Virus record (IMG/VR): IMGVR_UViG_3300014625_000037 | Location: 1 to 22,542 of that record | Strand: one strand, 5' to 3' | Length of the DNA: 22,542 bases | DNA from: a virus | Taxonomy: Duplodnaviria > Heunggongvirae > Uroviricota > Caudoviricetes | Part shown: positions 5,565 to 22,542 of the stretch, piece by piece | Layout of the letters: each line of letters opens with the position of its first letter | Position numbering within the stretch: the stretch's first letter is position 1 | Made by a program: the position numbers and the translations under genes | The notes under the pieces: model-generated | What the model saw: the letters and a program-made list of their open reading frames with translations, nothing else | The model's database searches: none | What the model was told of the DNA's origin: nothing

Positions 5565-6028
5565 CAGATAAGCTCCACTGTGCAGTGCGGCGCATCCTGC
5601 ACCCGGCTGATGGCCCAGCGGGCGTCACGCCATAAATCACCGCTTGCTTCCGCCAGTTCCTCGCCCCGCTTCACACCGGATGCCGTGGCGTCATAGTCCT
5701 GATAACGCTCGTTGAGCATGGCGCGTGCCCAGCAGTAAACCGCGTTGAAATAGTGATGAATGCGCTCACTTTTGCCGTCCAGCTGTTCCGCCGGAACCTC
5801 AGCCAGCGACGCATACCCCAGCATCTGCTGACGTCTGCGAAACTCATACAACTCTGCGTTGACCTCCGAAATTGCCGACAGGGCAGCCTGCTTTAAACGC
5901 GGCTGCGTCACCGTGCCGTCAGTGCGCATGACACTGCGAAACTCCGACAGGTCCACATCAGGCCAGAACGGCGTATTTCTAATGATTTCCGCCTGTTCCG
6001 GTGCCTGTTCTGGCGCAACAAACTTCAT
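5564..6028 (-). CDS. L: Head completion/stabilisation protein L
   Basis: Track ORF is 5564..6091 with a GTG start; I prefer ATG at 6028 with AGGAG 8 nt upstream (MKFVAPEQ...). Position between M and X as in P2. Confidence 0.75.
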   Translation of the reverse strand: MKFVAPEQAPEQAEIIRNTPFWPDVDLSEFRSVMRTDGTVTQPRLKQAALSAISEVNAELYEFRRRQQMLGYASLAEVPAEQLDGKSERIHHYFNAVYCWARAMLNERYQDYDATASGVKRGEELAEASGDLWRDARWAISRVQDAPHCTVELI

Positions 6029-6123
6029 GCTGCTTTCTCCTGAAATAGAGGGCGGTGGACGGGGTTTTGATGTGGCAGTGCCTTTCGCCACCCCGTGCCG
6101 CCCGTGCGCGGGGGCACGTTCTG

Positions 6124-6774
6124 TCAGCGGCTGTCATTGCGCAGTCTGCGCTCCAGCTGCTGTTTGTCTTTTTTCACGCCACAGCGGGGATCGAGCTGTA
6201 ACGCATGGTTGAGATGATTAAGGGCGGAAGCCGGGTTGCTTTCACTCAGGACAGCGCCAATCGCTTTATGCAGACGCGCCCGTGACTGGTCCGGCATATC
6301 CAGACCGTCTGTCAGCTCCAGCGTCTGCAGCAACAGATCGGCATCAAAGCCGGTGGCGGCAAGCATTGCGCTCTGCGCCGCGTCTGCCATTTCCTCTGCC
6401 AGCACGGTCTGCACATTGCGGTTACCCAGCGGCATCACCCAGCCATGACGCAGGGCGTGATGCCCGATCTCCAGCGCCCCGGCATAATCTCCGGCATCAA
6501 TGCGCCACAGCATCACGTACATCAGCACGTCATCCTGTTGAGCGCCTCCAGCAGCCAAGACGCCCTCCGCCCAGGCGGCGTACTTCGGCAGCAGCTCCAC
6601 TTTGATTTCCGCTTTTTTGACCGTGGACTGAACGCCCTTGAGACGGCGGCGGTCTTCCGCCAGTTGCAGCAGCATCAGGTCATAGCCCGACGCGTGGCGA
6701 ACACTGCCGCCCTCGCGGGCGGCCTGTTCAGCCTGAACGCGCAGGCGATGCTGCCGTGCGGGACTCAGGCTCAT
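6124..6774 (-). CDS. M: Terminase small (endonuclease) subunit M
   Basis: 216-aa ORF downstream of N, order O-N-M-L as in P2. Confidence 0.8.
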   Translation of the reverse strand: MSLSPARQHRLRVQAEQAAREGGSVRHASGYDLMLLQLAEDRRRLKGVQSTVKKAEIKVELLPKYAAWAEGVLAAGGAQQDDVLMYVMLWRIDAGDYAGALEIGHHALRHGWVMPLGNRNVQTVLAEEMADAAQSAMLAATGFDADLLLQTLELTDGLDMPDQSRARLHKAIGAVLSESNPASALNHLNHALQLDPRCGVKKDKQQLERRLRNDSR

Positions 6775-11665: not shown

Positions 11666-12670
11666 TTATTCTTCTGAATCATCATAAACATCCATTCCTT
11701 CGGTCTGATTTCTAATATAAGAAGCCCCCATAGAATTAGCAATCGCAGTCCGAATTAACCCTACATGAGTGAAAAACACCCCTAACCTAGCACGCTTTAA
11801 CTCAGACTCATCATCATAGTCATCTTCATTACTTATAATTCTTCTAACCATTGCCTTATCTTCGTCAATAGCCGAAGGTAGCCCACTCTTTAAAGCGTCA
11901 ATACACTCACCTACAGTTATAATTTTATTTTTAATTAATTCAGAAAGCAAATCATCATAATTTTCATCATCAGATTTATTATCAGGTGGTAATTCACTTG
12001 CAGCTATCATTTTCAGCAATTCTACGTCAAGCATAGTTCCTCTATCTAGTCTGCTTGTCTCAACATACCCCTCACGCTCTGATAACACTCTTTCAAATTC
12101 GAAATCAACGACTTCAAGCAAAGCAGATACTCTATTAATTGCTCGCCTAAGAGGAAGTGGAACACTTTGCTCTTTTTTGTATTGCAGTTTATGAGATGCT
12201 GCAGCCCAAATATGCTGAGAAAGCGTTCGTATTTGCACCTCCACTTTCATATTTTTAAAATCACTAAAGGATGGAACTCTTAGCCATTCTTCTGGAGGTT
12301 GTATTACATAATGATGAGATTGGTACCCAAATCTATCCTCATCCAGTTCATCAAGTTTATTCTCTTGCTTCAAAATAATGAAATGTTCTTTCAGACAAGA
12401 TATAACCTTTTCAACATCTCGCTTAAATAGCATTATTAATCGGATTCCAACATAATCATCCAAGTCAACTATTGACTCAATCTTTAGAGGTTTTCGGTTA
12501 TCCTTATTAATAATAGAACTTAATGTTTTGACACGGCTTTCAATTGGAACCCCTAAAGACAATTTATTCTCCGACAAAATAACATCAATTTGCTCAACCA
12601 TAACTCGTCTGAACAATTCCGCAACTGAGCCGTAAATTGAATGCTGTTCTTTTAATTCTTCGTCTGTCAT
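11666..12670 (-). CDS. RelA/SpoT-domain nucleotidyltransferase, 334 aa (candidate fused toxSAS/CapRel-like defence protein or small alarmone synthetase)
   Basis: ATG at 12670 with AGGTAAGA upstream. Synthetase-domain motifs RVKTLSS (46-52), DYVGIRL (72-78), GYQSHH (115-120), EVQIRTLSQHIWAAASH (144-160). C-terminal ~150 aa acidic domain without obvious motif. AT-rich. No adjacent small ORF. Confidence 0.75.
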   Translation of the reverse strand: MTDEELKEQHSIYGSVAELFRRVMVEQIDVILSENKLSLGVPIESRVKTLSSIINKDNRKPLKIESIVDLDDYVGIRLIMLFKRDVEKVISCLKEHFIILKQENKLDELDEDRFGYQSHHYVIQPPEEWLRVPSFSDFKNMKVEVQIRTLSQHIWAAASHKLQYKKEQSVPLPLRRAINRVSALLEVVDFEFERVLSEREGYVETSRLDRGTMLDVELLKMIAASELPPDNKSDDENYDDLLSELIKNKIITVGECIDALKSGLPSAIDEDKAMVRRIISNEDDYDDESELKRARLGVFFTHVGLIRTAIANSMGASYIRNQTEGMDVYDDSEE

Positions 12671-12966: not shown

Positions 12967-13578
12967 CTACGTAACCACAGTTAATGTGTGCATCCTGTCT
13001 CGAATTGCATCACACGTCTCATCAAAAAGCTTGATGATGGTTGTATGGTTCAACTCCGCCTCTTTCCAATAATTTTGCCCGTCAAATTCTGGATCGCTAT
13101 GCTTAAACGATATTGACTCTGAAAGGCATTCCTTCCGGAAACGGTCCAAGATTATATAAACCTCTGGTGAGATGAACGGTTTGTTAGATTCAACACTTGT
13201 AACAAAAGTGTTAAATGCATCAGAAAAAACTTTCAACCTTCTAAATTTTCTCTCTTCAAATGGTTCGTTGGGGTCAACATGATCCAGCGCAGGCCTCAGC
13301 TTAAGCACGCTTTCTCTGGTTTCAAACATCGAATTCCAAATGAGACTATATGCTGATAACTCCTTATCAAAATACGCTTTCGTTACATAAACAGAATTGT
13401 CTAACTTAGCCTTTATTCTTTCATTAGTTGCACTCAGTTGTGATTGAAATTCAGCAATATCTTTGTTTAGCCGCGACTTATATCTTTCTAAATAAACTTT
13501 CCCGATCCAAACAAATATGCCAGATGCAACAAAAGACACCCCACCCAACGAAGCCAGAACTTTAAAGACTAAATCCAT
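12967..13578 (-). CDS. Hypothetical membrane-anchored protein, 203 aa (single N-terminal TM helix)
   Basis: ATG at 13578; N-terminal hydrophobic segment VLASLGGVSFVASGIFVWIG followed by a ~170-aa soluble domain; AT-rich; sits beside cos at the position P2 uses for old/tin. Confidence 0.65.
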   Translation of the reverse strand: MDLVFKVLASLGGVSFVASGIFVWIGKVYLERYKSRLNKDIAEFQSQLSATNERIKAKLDNSVYVTKAYFDKELSAYSLIWNSMFETRESVLKLRPALDHVDPNEPFEERKFRRLKVFSDAFNTFVTSVESNKPFISPEVYIILDRFRKECLSESISFKHSDPEFDGQNYWKEAELNHTTIIKLFDETCDAIRDRMHTLTVVT

Positions 13579-13960: not shown

Positions 13961-14194
13961 TTAGTGCAGCCAGCTGTCGTCTTCCCAAACCTGTTGCATA
14001 ATTTCCATCACCCGCTTTTTGTCTTCATCAAGCTTTAAGCCACTCAGCTCAACGCCGTTTGCCGACCCTTTACGGATGCGGATAGCGGTCTTGGGATAGA
14101 TGGGTTGCAGGTTGCGGTAAAGCTCGGACTCCAGAGCGTCCAGGGTAGACTGGCTAATCTTCTGCTCTTTATCGATCATTATTTCAATGCGCAT
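13961..14194 (-). CDS. DinI-like protein
   Basis: Preferred start MRIEIMID... at ATG 14194 with GAGGTGA upstream; 77 aa; N-terminus and C-terminal ...EIMQQVWEDDSW resemble E. coli DinI (MRIEVTIAK...ILQETWESADDW) from memory. Confidence 0.75.
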   Translation of the reverse strand: MRIEIMIDKEQKISQSTLDALESELYRNLQPIYPKTAIRIRKGSANGVELSGLKLDEDKKRVMEIMQQVWEDDSWLH

Positions 14195-14204
14195 AAAAGT
14201 CACC

Positions 14205-14393
14205 TCAGCTGATGACATCCATTGAGCGGTTGTATTCGTGGCTTCTGATTTTTGCCATGAGTTCATCAGTCAATTCAGAAACCCACTGCAGGGCCAGCCC
14301 CTTCTCTTCATCACTACACTCACTAGCCGCTACAAGCTTAAGAAAAAAATCAATGCGCTGGAGCTTCAAAGACTCCAAAAAATAGTCCTGCAT
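14205..14393 (-). CDS. Small hypothetical protein (62 aa), first gene of SOS-regulated operon; possible antirepressor
   Basis: ATG at 14393 preceded by TAGGAGGAAAG; the longer track ORF (to 14495) would place the LexA box inside the coding sequence, so it is rejected. Confidence 0.55.
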   Translation of the reverse strand: MQDYFLESLKLQRIDFFLKLVAASECSDEEKGLALQWVSELTDELMAKIRSHEYNRSMDVIS

Positions 14394-16919: not shown

Positions 16920-17749
16920 TACGCAATCTCCAGTTCGAGCTGTGAAGGCTGCAAACCATTCGACAGCCAATCAGAAACTGAAGGTGGGCGAACAGCTTCA
17001 ATTGCACCTTTTAAAATTGCGCAACGGTTTTTCAGAATGACAGCTTTCAGCTCCTTTTCCGTCAGATTGCGCGAATACTCAGCCTCCTGAATAGCCCGCG
17101 TCAGCTCAGGATATTTGCTATTAAATTTGGGGACATTGCAGGCAAGATTTGTACTGTCGGCAGTCGCCAGTGGGTAATTTCCCAACACACGACCGTCAAG
17201 CATGCGCAAACCATGAACAGCTGTTTTGAAATTGTGTCGGCAATAAATTGCTTCAAAAGCGTCCTGCATACGATGATGCCAGTGCGCAGTTCTGATAGCC
17301 GCATATTCACCAGACGATCCAAAGCAGACACGAGGCCATTCACGACATAGCTCGATAAGCCGATCGATTGACTCGTGCAGATGCCAGACGGGAGTTGCCT
17401 TCCCGTAGAACATTTTCGGAACTTCGTTTATCAGGGCATCATTGTCACGTTCACCTCCGTCCACAACATCAGGAATGACAAAAAAAGCGACCTTAGGATG
17501 GTGGTAATAGTTCAGGAGCCATTTATAAAAATCACTCCAGTTAATTTTTAGCCCACGCACCCATGCAGAAAATGCGCCGTTATCAATGCCGACGACCTGA
17601 GCGTGCTGAATGGACGCCGCAATCTGATCTGGTCGTACATAGGAGACGAAAGCGCCAGCTCCGCTCACCGCAATACGATGAACGTCGCCAGCACTTCCCC
17701 AGACAGGCGTCCCATGGAAATGATGAATTCCGTGGTGCATTTCTTTCAC
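16919..17749 (-). CDS. Hypothetical early protein, 276 aa, translationally coupled between Dam and A
   Basis: GTG at 17749 overlapping the Dam stop, or ATG at 17740; His-rich N-terminus; no family recognised with confidence. Confidence 0.6.
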
Positions 17750-18600
17750 ACTTGCACCCCGAAAATAACAGTAGAGTCACGTCCTCTACTAAAATCGGCA
17801 CTAAACCAATTAGCAGATTTAGTGGCAATCATCTCTGTTGCAAATTTTCCCTCCCCCGCTGCAACGCCGATGCTGCGTTTCGCCCTGATGTAGTGGTGAG
17901 TGAAATTACGATAAAGGGACCGGGTCAAAGACGTGTTACTGTTAGAAACAATGACCGGATGTCCTTCTGATGACCGATGTTCAAGAATGGATGCCAGGTG
18001 ATACTGATCATCTTCAGTGAAACCATCAGTGTGATAGCCGGAAAACGTACCGTCATAAGGCGGATCGCAATACACCACATCCCCCACCTTCAACATCGCC
18101 AGCGTTTCATCAAAGCTGGCGCAGATAAACGTTGCCCGCTGGGCTTTCTCTGCAAATGCGCGAATTTCTTTTTCAGGGAAATACGGATTTTTATAATTAC
18201 CGTAGGGAATGTTGAAATGCCCGCTCTTGTTATAGCGACATAAACCACGGTAACCGTGACGATTGAGATACAGGAAATATACCGCTTTCATGAAATCAGT
18301 AATTTCAGTGGAGTAATTAAACTCCTGCCTTATGTTGTAATAAGCCACCTCCCTGTTTGCTTCCTCAAATAAAGCTCTGGCACGAGATATAAACGCCTCA
18401 CAATCAGCAGCAACCTTTTTATAGAGGTTGATTAAATCAGGATTAATATCCGCAACAAGATAGCTGGGATAATCCGTCTCCATCATCACTGCACAGGAAC
18501 CCGCGAAAGGTTCAACCAGTCGCGGGCCAGCAGGAAGATGCTTTTTCAGTTCGGACATTATGGCGGTTTTATTTCCTGCCCATTTCAGGATGGTGCTCAT
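17746..18600 (-). CDS. dam: DNA adenine (N6) methyltransferase, Dam-like
   Basis: Start ATG 18600 ([11 protein letters not shown]...) overlapping the upstream stop (ATGA). Motifs KWAGNK, EPFAGS (SAM-binding FxGxG) and DPPY (catalytic motif IV). Confidence 0.85.
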
Positions 18601-18824
18601 ACAGCACCTCCGTTGTAATGTTTGCCTTTCAGCTCTGCGATTTCCTGACAGGTAATGCAAAGCTGCACACCCGGAATGGCACGGCGGCGTGCTGGCGGAA
18701 TTGGCGCTTCACACTCAACGCAAAGCACGCGGGACACGCCCGGCGTTTTGGCACGGGCAGCACGGATATGGCGTTGGCGTTCTTCTTCAACGCGCTGCTG
18801 TACGAGATCCATTGCATCAGCCAT
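18597..18824 (-). CDS. TraR/DksA-family C4 zinc-finger protein
   Basis: 75 aa with CxxC-x17-CxxC (CVECEAP...CITCQ). Confidence 0.75.
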   Translation of the reverse strand: MADAMDLVQQRVEEERQRHIRAARAKTPGVSRVLCVECEAPIPPARRRAIPGVQLCITCQEIAELKGKHYNGGAV

Positions 18825-19058
18825 CAGTGGATCTCCTGCGCTTCGTTCTGGATTGCTTCAGCAGTCACACGCAGCAGTTCTGCCGCTTCGACGTGGTTTA
18901 GCTGGCGGGAGGTGATATGACACGCCAGGCTATCGAGGCGAGCAGCCATTGCTTCAGCCCTTGCCCGGCGTTCTTCCAGACGAGCCTCTGTCAGTAAAAG
19001 ATTAAGACCTGCATCATCCGGTCCGGTTTTGGTCGTGAGGGTTTCAATATTACGCATA
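18824..19058 (-). CDS. Hypothetical early protein (77 aa)
   Basis: ATG at 19058 with AGGAG 8 nt upstream; the track ORF starts 5 nt earlier at TTG. Confidence 0.5.
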
Positions 19059-19124
19059 AGCAATTCTCCTGAATTTAGATAAAGAGATGCCCGGCGGGTT
19101 TACGCCATTAATTTCATTAGTTGG

Positions 19125-19466
19125 TTAATTCGGCATGGTTAGCCGTCTGGGAAATAAGCTCACCACTGCACGAAAATGATTCATTGCTTTAATCAACTCC
19201 CGCTTTTCGTCAGTGGTCAGCTCATTAATGCTGATGCTATGACGTTCAGCTGGAATTTTTGCCATAAAGAATATGGCAGCCAGTGCCCGTTTATTTTGTT
19301 CATTATTGATATCCCGAGGATCACGCATATCTTTAATAAACCGCTCAAGCTCTGACTCAATATTCAAACCAAAAACTTTCGCCCTTAACTCCGCAATATG
19401 ATTAAGTCCATTCAGGCGTTCACCGGGTCTTAATGGAACAGTCGCCGCAGCGCCTTCAATAGCCAT
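19125..19466 (-). CDS. Hypothetical early protein (113 aa)
   Basis: ATG start at 19466; in the early operon between CII and Dam. Confidence 0.5.
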   Translation of the reverse strand: MAIEGAAATVPLRPGERLNGLNHIAELRAKVFGLNIESELERFIKDMRDPRDINNEQNKRALAAIFFMAKIPAERHSISINELTTDEKRELIKAMNHFRAVVSLFPRRLTMPN

Positions 19467-19630
19467 TTGTTCCCCCGTTTTTTCGTAGATAGTTCTGCCA
19501 GCAATTCATCTTGTGAACGGCACGGATGCCAGCGTTTACCATCCTCACCCATGATCCAGCCGTGACCGTAGTGCATTGCCGGACTTTGTTTTACCAGCAG
19601 CGATGCAAATGATGGTTCTTTCGTCAGCAT
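19430..19630 (-). CDS. Hypothetical small early protein (66 aa)
   Basis: ATG at 19630 with GAGGTG upstream, 7 nt after the CII stop; the track ORF begins further upstream inside cII. Confidence 0.4.
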   Translation of the reverse strand: MLTKEPSFASLLVKQSPAMHYGHGWIMGEDGKRWHPCRSQDELLAELSTKKRGNKWLLKALRRLFH

Positions 19631-19637
19631 AAGCACC

Positions 19638-20147
19638 TCACAGCAAACCGAATGAAGCACCGAGGCCAGTCACGGTATCAACTGCACTCGCCATCGCAGG
19701 ATTAGCCTGTAAACGGGCCTGCAATGAAACAGCAGCCAGCGCCATCAGTCGTGTAACAGAGTTAATGCTGCTGATCGCATCACGACGGCCTGCACTGGTT
19801 TTTACATCGCCAGAAACCGCACCTGCCGCGACACGCCCTATCTCTGCAGTTGCACTCATGACGTAATGCGGCAGTTTCTCTTTTGCCACCTCATTAATCG
19901 GTACACATGGCAGGCAGTGAATCTGTGCCAGAAAGCCATCTACCAGCGTTGAATCTTCAGTCAGATCGGTAAGCAACCAGATTTCTGGTGCGGTTAATAA
20001 ATGAGGTTGAGCTGGGTTCAGCTTGTTCCGCAGAATCTGCACATTCATGCCTGCACGTTCTGCCAGTTGCACTAGGTTGTGGCGCAATGCGAATGCACGA
20101 CAGGCTTCATCAAAATGTGGATGTTTGGAAACTTGGTAATCAAACAT
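19638..20147 (-). CDS. cII: CII-like transcriptional activator (phage 186 CII family)
   Basis: ATG at 20147 ([24 protein letters not shown]...); sequence closely resembles the 186 CII family as I recall it. Confidence 0.75.
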
Positions 20148-20179
20148 GGTCAATGCCTCTGATGTATTTCAGAATCGAA

Positions 20180-20401
20180 CTAATTAAGGTTTAGATTGCA
20201 TTCTGAAAGCGCATCAACGGTCATGGCTGCTATGTTGATCATCACTTTTTCACGTTTTTTATCTTTGCGCAGACGGTGACGGATAAGGCGTCCGTCAGCC
20301 AACATGTCATTGATGGTATCGATGGACAGCCCTGTCAGCTCGCTATAGCGTTCAATAGTCACATGAGGCGTGGTAAGAGTGATTGAAATGTTAGGTCTCA
20401 T
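20180..20401 (-). CDS. apl: Apl/Cox-like excisionase/regulator
   Basis: 73 aa, first gene of the rightward-type operon, divergent from CI; helix-turn-helix-like segment [19 protein letters not shown]. Confidence 0.6.
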
Positions 20402-20526
20402 GATGCAACATTCCTCGTTTAATGATGATTAATCAGGACGAATACGGATCGTTTGTATTTTGTGAACACCATAAACATACGATCGCACAGTGAAATCGTC
20501 AAGATAAAAGTTCACTTGGAGTGACC
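20402..20526. promoter_or_regulatory. Lysis-lysogeny switch region (divergent early promoters and operators)
   Basis: 125-bp divergent intergenic region between apl and cI; repeated ATACG(G)ATCG elements each containing GATC (20447-20450, 20481-20484); inverted GTGAA...TTCAC arms. Confidence 0.5.
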
Positions 20527-21096
20527 ATGAATTTGGAGAAAGGCGGACGAGGCGCTATAGAGCGCATGGTAGAAGCTTATGGATTCAAAACTCGACAGGC
20601 GTTGTGCGATCATTTAGGAATCTCTAAAAGTACACTCGCCACACGCTACATGCGTGACTCATTCCCAGCAGAATGGGTAATCCAGTGCGCCCTTGAAACG
20701 GGCACCTCGCTTAATTGGCTCACAACCGGACATGGTTCAAAGCAAACTTCAGGTAATACAAATACTATGGAAGTTGCTAAATATGTATTATCTGATGGTG
20801 CCTTGCGTGAAGACGGTTTTTATATTTTTGATAAGGGATTTCTACCCTCTACGTTTAAAAAACCTTTTGTCATCACAGATAACAATTCTGAATTTATTTG
20901 TGATAAAGAATTTGATGATATACGTGACGGTAAATGGGTAATAAGTATTGATGGCGAAATAACAATCCGCGACATTACTCGTTTACCCGGTGGAAGAATC
21001 TTCGTTGAAGGTGGAAACAGAGCCTTCGAGTGCAAGATAGAAGATGTTGAAATAATTGGGAAAATTATAAGTTTAACAATTAAGTACGTTAGGTAA
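20527..21096 (+). CDS. cI: CI-type immunity repressor (186 CI family)
   Basis: ATG 20527 with GGAG 5 nt upstream; 189 aa, size and N-terminal HTH region consistent with 186 CI; upstream of and co-directional with int. Confidence 0.8.
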   Translation: MNLEKGGRGAIERMVEAYGFKTRQALCDHLGISKSTLATRYMRDSFPAEWVIQCALETGTSLNWLTTGHGSKQTSGNTNTMEVAKYVLSDGALREDGFYIFDKGFLPSTFKKPFVITDNNSEFICDKEFDDIRDGKWVISIDGEITIRDITRLPGGRIFVEGGNRAFECKIEDVEIIGKIISLTIKYVR

Positions 21097-21111
21097 TACC
21101 GGGAGGAAACT

Positions 21112-21303
21112 ATGCTTGGTAAGGTATTTTTTGTGGTTTTATCATGCTCTTTGTTATTAAACCCACTAACTACCTATGCTAAAAATTATCCTTGTTCTGG
21201 GAAAAAGGGAGGTGTCTCTCACTGTACCTCCGATGGAAAGTTCGTTTGCAATGATGGAACTATTAGTAAATCAAAAAAAATCTGTACTAAAAACTCGCGA
21301 TAA
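21112..21303 (+). CDS. Small secreted Cys-rich protein (63 aa), moron between cI and int
   Basis: Strong RBS GGGAGG 5 nt upstream; N-terminal signal peptide [23 protein letters not shown]; mature part Lys-rich with 4 Cys; AT-rich. Confidence 0.55.
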
Positions 21304-21489
21304 ATTTTGCTTTTATATCTGCGCCTAATATAACAATGAGTCGCAGGCTAACCGCAAAAGTCACATACTCACATAGCAAAAAATAGCCAACTTCATTATG
21401 GCTTCAGTGAGATGTATGGTCGCAGGATTTCATACATTGACACTGGTTATACATACAGTAAAAATGCTCTCTATTGGAGGGCATTTTTT

Positions 21490-22542
21490 ATGGCAGTACG
21501 AAAACTCACCACAGGAAAATGGCTTTGCGAATGTTACCCCGCCGGACGTAGTGGGCGTCGTGTGCGTAAACAATTCGCCACCAAAGGCGAAGCTCTGGCT
21601 TTTGAGCGCCATACGATGGAAGAAACCGAAGCAAAGCCCTGGCTGGGAGAATCAGTGGATCGTCGAACACTGAAAGACGTGGTTGAGCTATGGTTCAAAC
21701 TACATGGTAAATCTCTAACCGCTGGGCAGCATGTCTATGATAAATTGCTGTTGATGGTTGACGCTCTGGGCAATCCCCTTGCAACCGATCTCACCTCTAA
21801 AATGTTTGCCCACTATCGAGATAAACGCCTGACAGGTGAGATCTACTTCAGCGAGAAATGGAAGAAAGGAGCAAGCCCGGTCACCATTAACCTGGAGCAA
21901 AGCTATCTAAGTAGTGTTTTTAGCGAACTATCCCGCCTGGGCGAATGGTCGTATCCAAACCCACTGGAGAACATGCGAAAATTCACCATCGCAGAAAAAG
22001 AGATGGCATGGCTTACCCATGAGCAGATTGTTGAACTGCTGGCTGATTGCAAACGTCAGGACCCAATTCTGGCACTGGTAGTCAAGATATGCTTAAGCAC
22101 AGGCGCACGCTGGCGAGAAGCAATAAACCTTACCCGATCACAGGTGACTAAATACCGAATTACCTTTGTAAGAACGAAGGGGAAGAAAAACAGAAGCATC
22201 CCTATCAGTAAAGAGCTTTATGAAGAGATCATGGCGCTTGATGGGTTCAATTTCTTCACAGACTGCTATTTTCAATTTTTATCCGTGATGGAAAAAACGT
22301 CAATCGTGCTCCCTCGCGGTCAACTGACACACGTTCTGCGCCATACGTTTGCGGCGCATTTCATGATGTCGGGTGGAAATATCCTTGCTTTGCAAAAAAT
22401 CCTCGGACATCACGATATAAAAATGACTATGCGTTACGCTCATCTGGCACCGGATCATCTGGAAACGGCGCTCCGTTTCAATCCTCTGGCAACGCTGCCA
22501 AGTGGCGACAAAGTGGCGGCAGCGGTTGGCATTACCCCGTAA
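21490..22542 (+). CDS. int: Tyrosine integrase (P2/186 Int family)
   Basis: Start ATG 21490 with GGAGG upstream (track ORF begins earlier at 21412); C-terminal catalytic region ...HVLRHTFAAHFMMSGGNILALQKILGHHDIKMTMRYAHL; stop is the last codon of the window. Confidence 0.85.
   Translation: MAVRKLTTGKWLCECYPAGRSGRRVRKQFATKGEALAFERHTMEETEAKPWLGESVDRRTLKDVVELWFKLHGKSLTAGQHVYDKLLLMVDALGNPLATDLTSKMFAHYRDKRLTGEIYFSEKWKKGASPVTINLEQSYLSSVFSELSRLGEWSYPNPLENMRKFTIAEKEMAWLTHEQIVELLADCKRQDPILALVVKICLSTGARWREAINLTRSQVTKYRITFVRTKGKKNRSIPISKELYEEIMALDGFNFFTDCYFQFLSVMEKTSIVLPRGQLTHVLRHTFAAHFMMSGGNILALQKILGHHDIKMTMRYAHLAPDHLETALRFNPLATLPSGDKVAAAVGITP

What the first reader, a model, noticed from the sequence alone, without database searches (positions are those of the whole stretch)
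21100..21310. Small secreted cysteine-rich protein encoded between cI and int
An AT-rich 63-aa ORF with a strong RBS, a clear signal peptide and a Lys-rich mature peptide of about 40 aa containing four cysteines (two potential disulfides). It is transcribed with the repressor in the lysogen. That is the typical location for lysogenic-conversion factors such as exclusion proteins, bacteriocin-like peptides or host-interaction peptides.
Basis: partly seen in the sequence, partly recalled or inferred. Interest (0 to 1): 0.5.

Follow-up and report, generated by a model that had tools for sequence, protein, structure and literature searches.

The report
Prophage-borne YdcA-family small periplasmic protein
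The ORF is a real, strongly conserved gene for a tiny exported, disulfide-rich, very basic protein of the catalogued but uncharacterised YdcA family, which P2/186-like prophages repeatedly carry just downstream of their repressor gene, and what it does is still unknown.

Summary
The gene lies at 21112-21303 (+) and encodes 63 aa. It has a GGGAGG ribosome-binding site, a 23-residue Sec-type signal peptide and a 40-residue mature peptide (8 Lys, 1 Arg, 4 Cys, pI 9.6). It sits 15 nt after a 186-type cI and 186 nt before int.

The gene is already catalogued. It passes NCBIfam NF007463 (116 bits, cut-off 93) and matches phrog_6000. Its homologs carry Pfam PF27300 "YdcA", and RefSeq calls identical copies "YdcA family protein". 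It is under strong purifying selection (core pN/pS about 0.2 with saturated synonymous sites). It occurs in 632 of 5426 complete E. coli genomes.

About a quarter of species-level homolog loci are P2-like prophages. There the gene lies co-oriented downstream of the repressor, next to three repressor types, including an unannotated copy in Haemophilus phage HP2.

No function is known. The leads are:
- Borderline homology to each lobe of Legionella Dis2, a disulfide-pinned T4SS outer-membrane-complex subunit.
- Fusions of the module to three unrelated secreted-nuclease families.
- A conserved positive charge.

Best reading: a non-enzymatic periplasmic binding module expressed with cI in lysogens, possibly interfering with incoming DNA. 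That function is inferred, not shown. A bacteriocin or lipoprotein reading is unlikely.

The parts
21101..21106 (+). Shine-Dalgarno sequence GGGAGG, 5 nt upstream of the ATG
   Evidence: Read directly from the sequence.
21112..21303 (+). CDS of the YdcA-family pre-protein (63 aa plus stop)
   Evidence: ORF list. NCBIfam NF007463: 116.1 bits against a cut-off of 93. phrog_6000: E = 4.6e-34. Homologs carry PF27300. Between E. coli alleles 11 codons differ synonymously and 1-2 non-synonymously. Core pN/pS is 0.18-0.22.
21112..21180 (+). Predicted Sec signal peptide, residues 1-23, with cleavage after T-Y-A (inferred)
   Evidence: n/h/c architecture. Ala at -1 is invariant while the leader sequence is otherwise unconstrained (leader pN/pS 0.75-0.87). 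AF2 models residues 3-15 as a helix. Cys12 is not conserved and lies in no conserved lipobox.
21181..21300 (+). Mature 40-aa peptide: basic (net +7), four Cys, beta-hairpin core
   Evidence: Composition. Invariant residues P27 C28 S29 K32 G33 G34 C38 F44 C46 D48 G49 S52 S54 K55 C58. AF2 pLDDT is about 90 for residues 31-50, with strands at 35-38 and 44-46.
20527..21096 (+). cI repressor (186 type), immediately upstream on the same strand; the presumed first gene of the lysogenic operon
   Evidence: Pfam Phage_CI_repr 2.8e-33 and Phage_CI_C 2e-28. The ATG at 20527 corresponds to the RefSeq start in L087.
20402..20526 (.). Divergent control region between the apl-like gene (20180-20401, -) and cI; presumed pR/pL
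   Evidence: A minus-strand promoter-like site at 20502-20474. Gene order apl-like / cII (CP76) / Fil on the minus strand. The pL assignment is by analogy with phage 186 (my own knowledge) and with the pL annotated in HP2.
21437..21465 (+). Promoter-like site TTGACA-17-AAAAAT upstream of int, at the mosaic boundary
   Evidence: 10 of 12 consensus positions matched. Conserved in the E. coli, Klebsiella and Yersinia relatives. Similarity to Klebsiella phage int modules starts at 21432.
21460..21488 (+). Stable hairpin followed by a T-run. It overlaps the int ribosome-binding site and ends at the int ATG. It may be the terminator or attenuator of the cI-ydcA transcript, or may occlude the int RBS.
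   Evidence: Inverted repeat I3. RNA fold -18.4 kcal/mol, z = -6.3. Its function was not tested.
21490..22542 (+). Tyrosine integrase (P2/186 type); the prophage end lies beyond it
   Evidence: Pfam Int_N 3e-32 and Phage_integrase 7e-22. 97% DNA identity to the int of Klebsiella phage 4LV2017.

Best explanation
The ORF encodes a YdcA-family (PF27300 / NF007463) pre-protein, carried as cargo in the lysogenic operon of a 186-like prophage.

Proposed mechanism, step by step:
1. It is transcribed with cI from the lysogenic promoter, so it is made constitutively in lysogens. This is inferred from the 15-nt gap, the shared strand and the absence of an intervening terminator or promoter.
2. The pre-protein is exported by Sec and cut after Ala23 by signal peptidase I. 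This is inferred from the conserved leader architecture.
3. Its four invariant cysteines form two disulfides in the periplasm. This is inferred by homology with the disulfide-pinned lobes of Legionella Dis2 and from the standard DsbA pathway.
4. The product is a 40-residue, +7-charged beta-hairpin mini-domain that stays in the periplasm.
5. It is not an enzyme but a binding module. My favoured reading is that it binds a polyanionic or outer-membrane-proximal target. That target would be either nucleic acid crossing the periplasm or an outer-membrane-anchored machine through which DNA enters. The lysogen would thereby gain protection from, or altered uptake of, foreign DNA (superinfection exclusion in the broad sense).

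My confidence in the steps: real gene about 0.97; exported and disulfide-bonded about 0.85; co-expressed with cI about 0.8; non-enzymatic binding module about 0.8; DNA-entry interference as the pay-off only about 0.25.
For: Gene and family:
- Family membership.
- Purifying selection restricted to the mature core: pN/pS 0.18-0.22 against 0.75-0.87 in the leader. Between E. coli alleles, 11 synonymous against 1-2 non-synonymous codon differences.
- Leader: Ala at -1 invariant, the rest of the leader variable.

Lysogenic-operon placement recurs:
- 186-type CI loci in Escherichia, Buttiauxella and Yersinia.
- HP2, where the ydcA-like ATG overlaps the cI stop and pL is annotated.
- About nine betaproteobacterial P2-like prophages with an HTH + S24 repressor upstream and Ogr/Delta and gpD nearby.
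- No terminator or promoter predicted between cI and the ORF.

Binding module:
- The only structural relative is Dis2 (Lpg0823). Profile E = 2e-4, or 1.7e-3 with the mature region only. Foldseek probability 0.99. hhalign P = 2.8e-5. A Dis2-like protein carries PF27300.
- Dis2 is a non-catalytic subunit near the outer membrane, with two similar lobes and five disulfides, and it contacts the lipoproteins DotC, DotD and DotK (PMC8486379, PMC12716638).

Nucleic-acid lead:
- Among 149 diverse representatives, the only enzymes fused after the module are secreted nucleases of three unrelated folds: Endonuclease_NS x3 plus one partial, SNase x1 and PLD-like x1. There is also a sub-threshold HNH-like case.
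- The module's net charge averages +3.8 over 179 modules.
- In HP2 the next gene of the same operon is a secreted protein with an OB fold of the tRNA_anti-like type.
Against: - No experiment or phenotype links any YdcA-family protein to phage exclusion or DNA binding.
- PADLOC has no model matching it.
- Nuclease fusions are few (5-7 of 149). They could equally reflect anchoring to an envelope site rather than DNA binding.
- Dis2 lobes are not basic (+1 and -3), and Dis2 binds proteins, not DNA.
- Many family members are chromosomal and not phage-linked.
- The one reported phenotype for K-12-type ydcA is organic-acid (3-HP) sensitivity, not phage sensitivity (PMC7642389).
- Co-transcription, export and disulfide bonding are all inferred. 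No signal-peptide predictor was available.
Confidence: 0.5

Rival explanations
1. Envelope or stress-tolerance factor. The periplasmic peptide protects the host envelope, for example under acid, organic-acid or stationary-phase stress, as the chromosomal paralog YdcA may do. The prophage carries it as a fitness-enhancing gene for the lysogen rather than as an anti-phage function.
For: - Deleting ydcA in E. coli W made growth severely sensitive to 300 mM 3-hydroxypropionate. The same paper states that ydcA is up-regulated at pH 5 under YdcI (PMC7642389).
- A constitutive RpoS-type promoter peak lies in the rydC/ydcA intergenic region (PMC5493296).
- ydcA is up-regulated on entry to stationary phase (bioRxiv 10.1101/310961).
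- Many family members are chromosomal, outside mobile elements.
Against: - The window protein belongs to a different subfamily. It scores 68 bits against a cut-off of 118 for the K-12-type model NF007462, and is about 57% identical to K-12 YdcA.
- The 3-HP phenotype has no mechanism, and in that study it was overridden by a yieP deletion.
- This reading does not explain the nuclease fusions or the repeated linkage to phage repressor genes.
Confidence: 0.22
2. Protein-protein adaptor for outer-membrane-anchored machines. Like a single Dis2 lobe, the peptide docks onto periplasmic lipoproteins or a secretion or uptake apparatus (T4SS, T6SS, T2SS or a secretin) and alters its assembly or activity. 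It has no role for nucleic acid binding.
For: - Dis2 is the only structural relative, and it contacts DotC, DotD and DotK near the outer membrane (PMC12716638).
- A ydcA-like 133-aa ORF sits inside a plasmid T6SS cluster between tssE and a VasL-domain gene.
- One representative is fused to a VasL domain.
- UniRef names the exact protein 'Conjugal transfer protein'. This label is unsubstantiated.
Against: - Loss of Dis2 changes neither T4SS structure nor function appreciably (PMC12716638).
- The E. coli hosts and the window show no dedicated partner gene.
- Contexts are very heterogeneous.
- The strongly conserved basic residues (K32, K55) are absent from the Dis2 lobes.
Confidence: 0.15
3. Periplasmic metal-binding (Cu or Zn) peptide, using the four Cys and the nearly invariant His37 as ligands rather than forming disulfides.
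For: - The pattern is C-x9-C-x7-C-x11-C, with His adjacent to Cys38 in at least 90% of sequences.
- In Atlantibacter and Citrobacter the gene is followed by a DUF2946 gene (6 loci). From my own recollection that family is linked to copper uptake clusters.
Against: - In the homologous Dis2 lobes all cysteines are seen in disulfide bonds (PMC8486379).
- The E. coli periplasm is oxidising.
- The DUF2946 synteny is confined to one closely related group (at least 69% identity), so it amounts to about one event.
- No metal-handling genes lie nearby in the window.
Confidence: 0.06
4. Released bacteriocin-like or antimicrobial peptide, or alternatively a lipoprotein anchored through Cys12 that blocks a phage receptor in the manner of Cor or Llp.
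For: - It is small, cationic and Cys-rich.
- It sits in a lysogenic-conversion position.
- The window allele reads V-L-S-C at residues 9-12, which loosely resembles a lipobox.
Against: - There is no double-glycine leader, immunity gene or exporter in the window.
- K-12 carries a solitary chromosomal paralog.
- Cys12 is not conserved. Relatives have F, G or S there, or Cys preceded by I or V, which is not a lipobox.
- The hydrophobic stretch before Cys12 is only about 6 residues, whereas Ala23 at -1 is invariant.
Confidence: 0.04

Closest known systems
E. coli K-12 YdcA (b1419; NCBIfam NF007462, Pfam PF27300 'YdcA')
   Same: Same family and architecture: a Sec leader plus a basic mature peptide of about 37 aa with the PCSG-KGG-SHC...[15 protein letters not shown] motif and four Cys. 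It is predicted to be periplasmic and its function is unknown (bioRxiv 10.1101/2024.02.12.579971).
   Different: It is about 57% identical to the window protein and belongs to a different NCBIfam equivalog. The window protein scores 68 bits against a cut-off of 118 for NF007462, but 116 against 93 for NF007463. K-12 ydcA is chromosomal, lying between cybB/rydC and hokB, with an RpoS-type promoter. The window gene is prophage cargo behind cI.
Unannotated ORF of Haemophilus phages HP2 and S2 (NC_003315 2407-2589, complement; locus L001 2920-3102)
   Same: It is a YdcA-family protein of 60 aa. It occupies the same slot, immediately after a cI of the same Pfam type, on the pL strand and before int, in a P2-like phage.
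   Different: The cI proteins are only 32% identical and the int proteins 49%. The HP2 copy overlaps the cI stop codon (ATGA). It is followed by a second secreted protein, orf1(S), which has a tRNA_anti-like OB fold. The ORF is not annotated in the GenBank records.
Legionella pneumophila Dis2 (Lpg0823), Dot/Icm T4SS outer-membrane-cap subunit (PDB 7MUC/7MUD)
   Same: Each Dis2 lobe shows the same Cys spacing and the GG-x3-C...G-x-hVCN(D/N)G-x2-S motif. The lobes are disulfide-stabilised and periplasmic, close to the outer membrane. Dis2 is the only PDB relative by both sequence profile and Foldseek.
Secreted nucleases with an N-terminal YdcA-like module (representatives P0101, P0158, P0162, P0179, P0182, P0207)
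   Same: They have the same module directly after the signal peptide.
   Different: There the module is an accessory domain of SNase, PLD-like or Endonuclease_NS enzymes. The window protein is the module alone.
Phage superinfection-exclusion and lysogenic-conversion envelope proteins (phi80 Cor, T5 Llp, T4 Imm/Sp, P22 SieA, HK97 gp15; P2 cargo genes old, tin, fun(Z)) - recalled from my own knowledge
   Same: They are small envelope-targeted proteins expressed from the prophage, and accessory cargo in variable slots.
   Different: The known examples are lipoproteins or inner-membrane proteins. The mature YdcA peptide has neither a lipobox nor a transmembrane segment. There is no sequence similarity to any of them, no PADLOC hit and no exclusion phenotype shown.

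Membership tests
YdcA family (Pfam PF27300; NCBIfam NF007463 PRK10040.1-2) | Profile-HMM score above the curated cut-off | tested here: met
   NF007463: 116.1 bits against a cut-off of 93, E = 4.2e-34, covering residues 5-63. PF27300 is not in the local Pfam copy, but it is precomputed on nearly all homologs, including the 97%-identical P0001, and is named 'YdcA'.
YdcA family (Pfam PF27300; NCBIfam NF007463 PRK10040.1-2) | Four conserved cysteines and the PCSG-KGG...F-x-C-x-DG-x2-S-x-SK...C core | tested here: met
   All invariant columns of the 26-sequence alignment are present in the window protein.
YdcA family (Pfam PF27300; NCBIfam NF007463 PRK10040.1-2) | N-terminal signal peptide; periplasmic location | tested here: inconclusive
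   The leader architecture and the invariant Ala at -1 are consistent with export. No signal-peptide predictor or experiment was available.
K-12-type YdcA equivalog (NCBIfam NF007462) | Score above the curated cut-off (118 bits) | tested here: not met
   68 bits. The window protein is a paralogous subfamily, not the K-12 ortholog.
PHROG phrog_6000 (phage protein family of unknown function) | Profile match | tested here: met
   E = 4.6e-34, 117 bits, residues 3-59 against profile positions 1-56 of 56.
Dis2 (Lpg0823) T4SS outer-membrane-cap subunit | Two tandem lobes pinned by five disulfides | tested here: not met
   The window protein has a single module with four Cys. Dis2-like proteins have two.
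Dis2 (Lpg0823) T4SS outer-membrane-cap subunit | Homology of the lobe to the YdcA module | tested here: inconclusive
   [not shown]
Dis2 (Lpg0823) T4SS outer-membrane-cap subunit | Association with a Dot/Icm type IVB secretion system | tested here: not met
   The window is a P2/186-like prophage with no T4SS genes.
Phage 'moron' (independent cargo gene) - definition recalled from my own knowledge | Presence/absence polymorphism among otherwise related phages, and atypical base composition | tested here: met
   Klebsiella phage 4LV2017 shares the int at 97% identity but has a different 349-aa ORF in the slot. The ORF is 34.9% G+C against 50.3% for the window.
Phage 'moron' (independent cargo gene) - definition recalled from my own knowledge | Own promoter and terminator | tested here: not met
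   No promoter-like site lies between cI and the ORF. The only downstream hairpin (21460-21488) belongs to the conserved int leader. The gene appears embedded in the cI operon.
Superinfection-exclusion proteins (Cor/Llp lipoproteins; Imm/SieA/gp15 membrane proteins) | Lipobox or transmembrane anchor | tested here: not met
   The mature peptide is hydrophilic. Cys12 is not conserved and lies in no conserved lipobox.
Superinfection-exclusion proteins (Cor/Llp lipoproteins; Imm/SieA/gp15 membrane proteins) | Blocks infection by other phages when expressed | not testable with these tools
   This needs plating assays. PADLOC gave no hit.
Class II microcin / bacteriocin | Double-glycine leader, dedicated exporter and immunity gene nearby | tested here: not met
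   The leader is Sec-type. The neighbours are cI and int only.

The most novel reading that the evidence does not exclude
The YdcA module is a periplasmic, disulfide-stabilised nucleic-acid (polyanion)-binding mini-domain. P2-like prophages of at least three repressor types co-express it with their repressor. There it would intercept or obstruct DNA crossing the periplasm, whether from phage injection, conjugation or, in Haemophilus, natural transformation. That would make it a new soluble-periplasmic class of exclusion factor, evolutionarily related to the Dis2 lobes of the Legionella T4SS.
Probability: 0.15. Interest if true: 0.7.

Novelty: already known. Interest (0 to 1): 0.38.

Why it matters
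The gene is very common. It occurs in about 12% of complete E. coli genomes, including E. coli B/BL21-type laboratory strains and ATCC 8739. At least 531 IMG/VR viral contigs encode a relative of it, and relatives are found across Alpha-, Beta- and Gammaproteobacteria. Its 32-residue core is conserved through saturated synonymous divergence, yet no function is known for any member.

Because it sits in the operon that is on in every lysogen, it is probably one of the few prophage proteins made constitutively. If it alters DNA entry or envelope physiology, that would be a widespread, unrecognised lysogenic-conversion trait, easily testable in standard strains.

Two side results may be useful in their own right:
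- The family appears related to Dis2, which the literature describes as Legionellales-specific and without structural relatives.
- The module recurs as an N-terminal accessory domain of three unrelated secreted-nuclease families.

As an object, however, it is an already annotated family member in an ordinary cargo position.

Tried and rejected
- The local Pfam scan of the ORF gave only noise, because PF27300 is absent from that copy.
- PADLOC gave no hit for the ORF or for cI.
- Rfam found nothing in 19000-22542 at E <= 0.1.
I therefore could not get a model without the leader, and I could not read disulfide connectivity because no coordinates are returned.
- Weak profile hits to LDL-receptor class A repeats, hepsin and plant proteinase inhibitors (E = 0.03 to 7) were dismissed as Cys-pattern resemblance.
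- The NCBIfam lpg1681 hit (E = 0.11) was dismissed as sub-threshold.
- The IMG/VR scan returned only near-identical copies of the same prophage among the 80 loci kept. It gave prevalence but no new diversity.
- The phage-isolate collection contains no enterobacterial isolate with this allele. It only has Moraxella, Acinetobacter, Haemophilus and Pseudomonas relatives.
- A search for a conserved partner gene across loci found only lineage-specific synteny and the prophage genes.
- The UniRef name 'Conjugal transfer protein' could not be substantiated.
- The HNH assignment of fusion P0193 is below threshold (E = 0.009), and I do not count it as shown.
- Literature searches for YdcA, 'YdcA family', PF27300, PRK10040 and phrog_6000 found no functional study.
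- The lipoprotein, bacteriocin and non-coding-remnant readings were considered and rejected, as set out under the rival explanations.
Full report
**1. What is in the sequence**

- The region holds an ATG-initiated ORF at 21112-21303 on the + strand, encoding 63 aa.
- GGGAGG at 21101-21106 lies 5 nt before the ATG.
- The cI stop codon is at 21094-21096, so only 15 nt separate the two genes.
- The ORF is 34.9% G+C against 50.3% for the window. It belongs to a low-GC block running from the C-terminal half of cI to about 21430.
- The product reads [23 protein letters not shown] | [40 protein letters not shown].
- The mature part has 40 residues, 8 Lys + 1 Arg against 2 Asp, pI 9.6 and four Cys.

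**2. Surroundings**

The window is a P2/186-like prophage.
- Upstream on the same strand is a 186-type CI (Phage_CI_repr + Phage_CI_C).
- Downstream is a tyrosine integrase (Int_N + Phage_integrase).
- On the other strand are an apl-like gene, cII (Phage_CP76), Fil, DUF5347, a DksA/TraR zinc finger, a Dam-type methylase and replication protein A.
- No terminator-like or promoter-like site lies between cI and the ORF.
- The 186-nt spacer before int contains a promoter-like TTGACA-17-AAAAAT (21437-21465). It also contains a very stable hairpin with a T-run (21460-21488; -18.4 kcal/mol, z = -6.3) that overlaps the int ribosome-binding site.
- That stretch is conserved with the int module of Klebsiella and Yersinia relatives. 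DNA similarity to Klebsiella P2-like phages begins at 21432. The ORF therefore travels with the cI (immunity) side of the mosaic, not with int.
- In phage 186 the lysogenic promoter pL transcribes cI and int. That is my own knowledge, not tested here. In HP2 the equivalent pL is annotated.
- Co-transcription of the ORF with cI is thus the natural inference, but it is an inference.

**3. It is a real gene of a catalogued family**

- A search of 5.8 billion proteins gave 65 homologs down to E = 1.8e-34. Nearly all carry the precomputed Pfam family PF27300, and several are named 'YdcA family protein'. PF27300 is labelled 'YdcA'.
- NCBIfam NF007463 scores 116.1 bits against a cut-off of 93. The K-12-type model NF007462 scores 68 against 118. 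The window protein is therefore a paralogous subfamily, not the K-12 ortholog.
- PHROGs places it in phrog_6000, of unknown function.
- The exact sequence is in a 355-member cluster seen on at least 1000 contigs.
- An exhaustive profile search found 456 cluster representatives at 50% identity.
- One genome per species yielded 227 loci across Alpha-, Beta- and Gammaproteobacteria.

**4. Selection**

- In the 31-32-codon core (PCS...C), pooled pairwise comparisons give pS of about 0.82-0.85, which is saturated. pN is 0.15-0.18, so pN/pS is about 0.2.
- The 18 codons before the cleavage site give pN/pS of 0.75-0.87.
- Between E. coli alleles that differ by about 8% in DNA, 11 codons differ synonymously. 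Only 1-2 differ non-synonymously: T20A in the leader and K24R.
- The alignment shows invariant A23 (the -1 position), P27, C28, S29, K32, G33, G34, C38, F44, C46, D48, G49, S52, S54, K55 and C58, with a free-varying hydrophobic leader.
- This is the signature of a cleaved signal peptide followed by a tightly constrained folded peptide. It refutes the 'non-coding remnant' alternative.
- Cys12 is not conserved. Where a Cys is present in relatives it is preceded by I or V, so a lipoprotein reading is rejected.

**5. Prevalence and polymorphism**

- The ORF plus its downstream spacer is found in 632 of 5426 complete E. coli genomes, almost always once and on the chromosome. These include E. coli B derivatives, and ATCC 8739 carries the cI-ORF region.
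- At least 531 IMG/VR viral contigs encode a relative of it. The 80 best loci were near-identical copies of the window allele, with the gene about 1.2 kb from the contig end.
- One strain has the ORF truncated by an IS5-family element.
- Klebsiella phage 4LV2017 has a 97%-identical int but a different 349-aa ORF between cI and int, and no ydcA homolog.
- The cI-int junction is therefore a variable cargo slot.

**6. Recurrent placement behind prophage repressors**

- Using the window's own proteins as probes, I found the ydcA-like gene directly after a 186-type CI and before int in Escherichia, Buttiauxella and three Yersinia species. There CI is only 33-38% identical and Int 46-47% identical.
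- Haemophilus phages HP2 and S2 have an unannotated 60-aa homolog whose ATG overlaps the cI stop. It is followed by orf1(S) and int.
- About nine betaproteobacterial loci share a syntenic P2-like module. These are Iodobacter, Comamonas, Hydrogenophaga, Hydrogenophilales, Kingella and Aquabacterium. In it an HTH_3 + Peptidase_S24 repressor lies upstream on the same strand, with Ogr/Delta, gpD and replication protein A nearby.
- With L012, L016 and L028, roughly 18 of 75 species-level loci, plus HP2, are P2-like prophages.
- The remaining contexts are heterogeneous:
  - the cybB-ydcA chromosomal site of Escherichia;
  - a DUF2946 synteny in Atlantibacter and Citrobacter;
  - the structural-gene block of Moraxella phage Mcat17;
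  - Mu-like genes;
  - Acinetobacter, Rhizobium and Psychrobacter plasmids;
  - a plasmid T6SS cluster;
  - ordinary chromosomal neighbourhoods.
- No conserved partner gene emerged.

**7. Structure and relatives**

- AlphaFold2 with a 37-sequence alignment gave mean pLDDT 77.6, and about 90 for residues 31-50. It shows a leader helix and a short beta-hairpin at 35-38 and 44-46.
- The only PDB relative, by both sequence profile and Foldseek, is chain AN of 7MUC/7MUD. That chain is Dis2 (Lpg0823) of the Legionella Dot/Icm T4SS outer-membrane cap.
  - hmmsearch gave E = 2e-4 with the leader and 1.7e-3 with the mature region only.
  - Foldseek gave probability 0.99, 39% identity over 38 columns and TM 0.42.
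  - hhalign gave probability 74% and P = 2.8e-5.
  - A Dis2-like protein retrieved with a Dis2 fragment carries PF27300.
- Dis2 has two lobes similar in sequence and structure, pinned by five disulfides. It lies near the outer membrane and contacts DotC, DotD and DotK. It is dispensable for T4SS structure and function.
- By this homology, and because the periplasm is oxidising, the four Cys most likely form two disulfides. That is inferred.

**8. Domain fusions**

Among the 149 best representatives most are stand-alone, some with low-complexity basic tails.
- Five have 2-3 tandem modules.
- Seven have a second Cys-rich domain, CxC...CxGPRGGxYC. It resembles the PBCV basic adaptor domain, with the best single match below that model's gathering score.
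- The only enzymes fused after the module are nucleases: Endonuclease_NS in three plus one partial, SNase in one and PLD-like in one. There is also a sub-threshold HNH-like case.
- Three unrelated nuclease folds sharing the same N-terminal accessory module suggest one of two roles. It either binds nucleic acid or tethers the enzyme where nucleic acid passes.
- The module is basic throughout the family: mean net charge +3.8, and 76% of modules at +3 or more.
- In HP2 the next gene of the same operon encodes a secreted protein with a tRNA_anti-like OB fold.

**9. Literature**

- No functional study of the family was found.
- For K-12-type ydcA the literature gives the following:
  - It is predicted to be periplasmic, with unknown function (bioRxiv 10.1101/2024.02.12.579971).
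  - Its deletion makes E. coli W sensitive to 300 mM 3-hydroxypropionate, and the gene is said to be induced at pH 5 under YdcI (PMC7642389).
  - An RpoS-type constitutive promoter peak lies in the rydC/ydcA spacer (PMC5493296).
  - It is induced on entry to stationary phase (bioRxiv 10.1101/310961).

**10. Interpretation**

- Shown: this is a genuine, selected gene of the YdcA family, in a cargo slot linked to the immunity module, recurrently placed behind prophage repressors.
- Inferred with good support: co-expression with cI in lysogens, Sec export, cleavage after Ala23, two disulfides, periplasmic residence and a non-enzymatic binding role.
- Speculative: the target and the benefit.
- I favour a polyanion or DNA target, or an outer-membrane-proximal one, with an effect on the entry of foreign DNA. 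The grounds are the nuclease fusions, the charge, the Dis2 relationship and the repeated linkage to the lysogenic operon. I give that specific function only about 0.25.
- The main rivals are an envelope or stress-tolerance role like that suggested for K-12 ydcA, and a pure protein-adaptor role like Dis2.
- Metal-binding, bacteriocin and lipoprotein readings are minor.

**11. Verdict**

- The object itself is already catalogued: identical proteins are annotated 'YdcA family protein' in RefSeq. Novelty as an entity is therefore nil.
- Interest lies in an abundant, constitutively expressed prophage protein of unknown function that could easily be tested in standard laboratory strains. It also lies in the unreported links to Dis2 and to secreted nucleases. 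Interest is moderate (0.38).

Noticed in passing
window 11666-12670 (-): A 334-aa ORF with a RelA/SpoT nucleotidyltransferase domain (Pfam 7.6e-20) and a PADLOC PDC-S33 match (1.8e-16). It lies just beyond the portal/terminase end of the structural block, which from my own knowledge is a classic cargo hotspot of P2-like phages. It looks like a toxSAS/CapRel-type candidate defence gene. The adjacent 203-aa ORF at 12967-13578 (-) has no Pfam or PADLOC hit.
   Followed up: partly
window 21460-21488 (+), with 21437-21465: A stable hairpin followed by a T-run (-18.4 kcal/mol, z = -6.3) overlaps the int Shine-Dalgarno sequence and ends at the int ATG. It is preceded by a TTGACA-17-AAAAAT promoter-like site. 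The whole stretch is conserved with the Klebsiella phage 4LV2017 and E. coli relatives, and the promoter-like part also in Yersinia. It may terminate or attenuate the cI-ydcA transcript, or occlude int translation.
   Followed up: partly
[not shown]
   Followed up: partly
L086 813-1862 (Klebsiella phage 4LV2017): The same cI-int slot holds an unrelated 349-aa hypothetical ORF with no significant Pfam hit. This shows that the junction is a variable cargo position.
   Followed up: partly
representatives P0101, P0158, P0162, P0179, P0182, P0207, P0193 (protein library): The YdcA-like module occurs as an N-terminal accessory domain of secreted nucleases of three unrelated folds (SNase, PLD-like, Endonuclease_NS). 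There is a possible fourth, HNH-like and below threshold. Other members have 2-3 tandem modules or a second CxC...CTGPRGGxYC domain resembling the PBCV basic adaptor.
   Followed up: partly
L085 4926-5327 (Citrobacter sp. TSA-1 plasmid NZ_CP053574): A 133-aa protein with a YdcA-like N-terminus sits inside a plasmid-borne T6SS cluster, after tssJ and tssE and before a GIY-YIG nuclease gene and a VasL-domain gene. One library representative is a YdcA-VasL fusion.
   Followed up: no
L040, L051, L058 (Providencia spp.), about 6000-6700: Providencia homologs extend the module with a 150-200-residue Lys-rich repetitive tail, with units like KEKATKA(S/T)DKDSAKA(I/V).
   Followed up: no
window 13961-14266 (-), 17746-18660 (-), 18597-18824 (-): A DinI-like protein, a Dam-type D12 adenine methyltransferase (classed as an orphan MTase by PADLOC) and a DksA/TraR zinc-finger protein in the early region of the prophage. 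From my own recollection, the DinI-like protein may be a Tum-like antirepressor as in phage 186.
   Followed up: no
L088 2016-3298 (E. coli O19:H7 730V1): In this strain the prophage ydcA-family gene is truncated at its 3' end by an ISKpn26 (IS5-family) insertion between it and int. The gene is therefore dispensable for maintaining the prophage.
   Followed up: no
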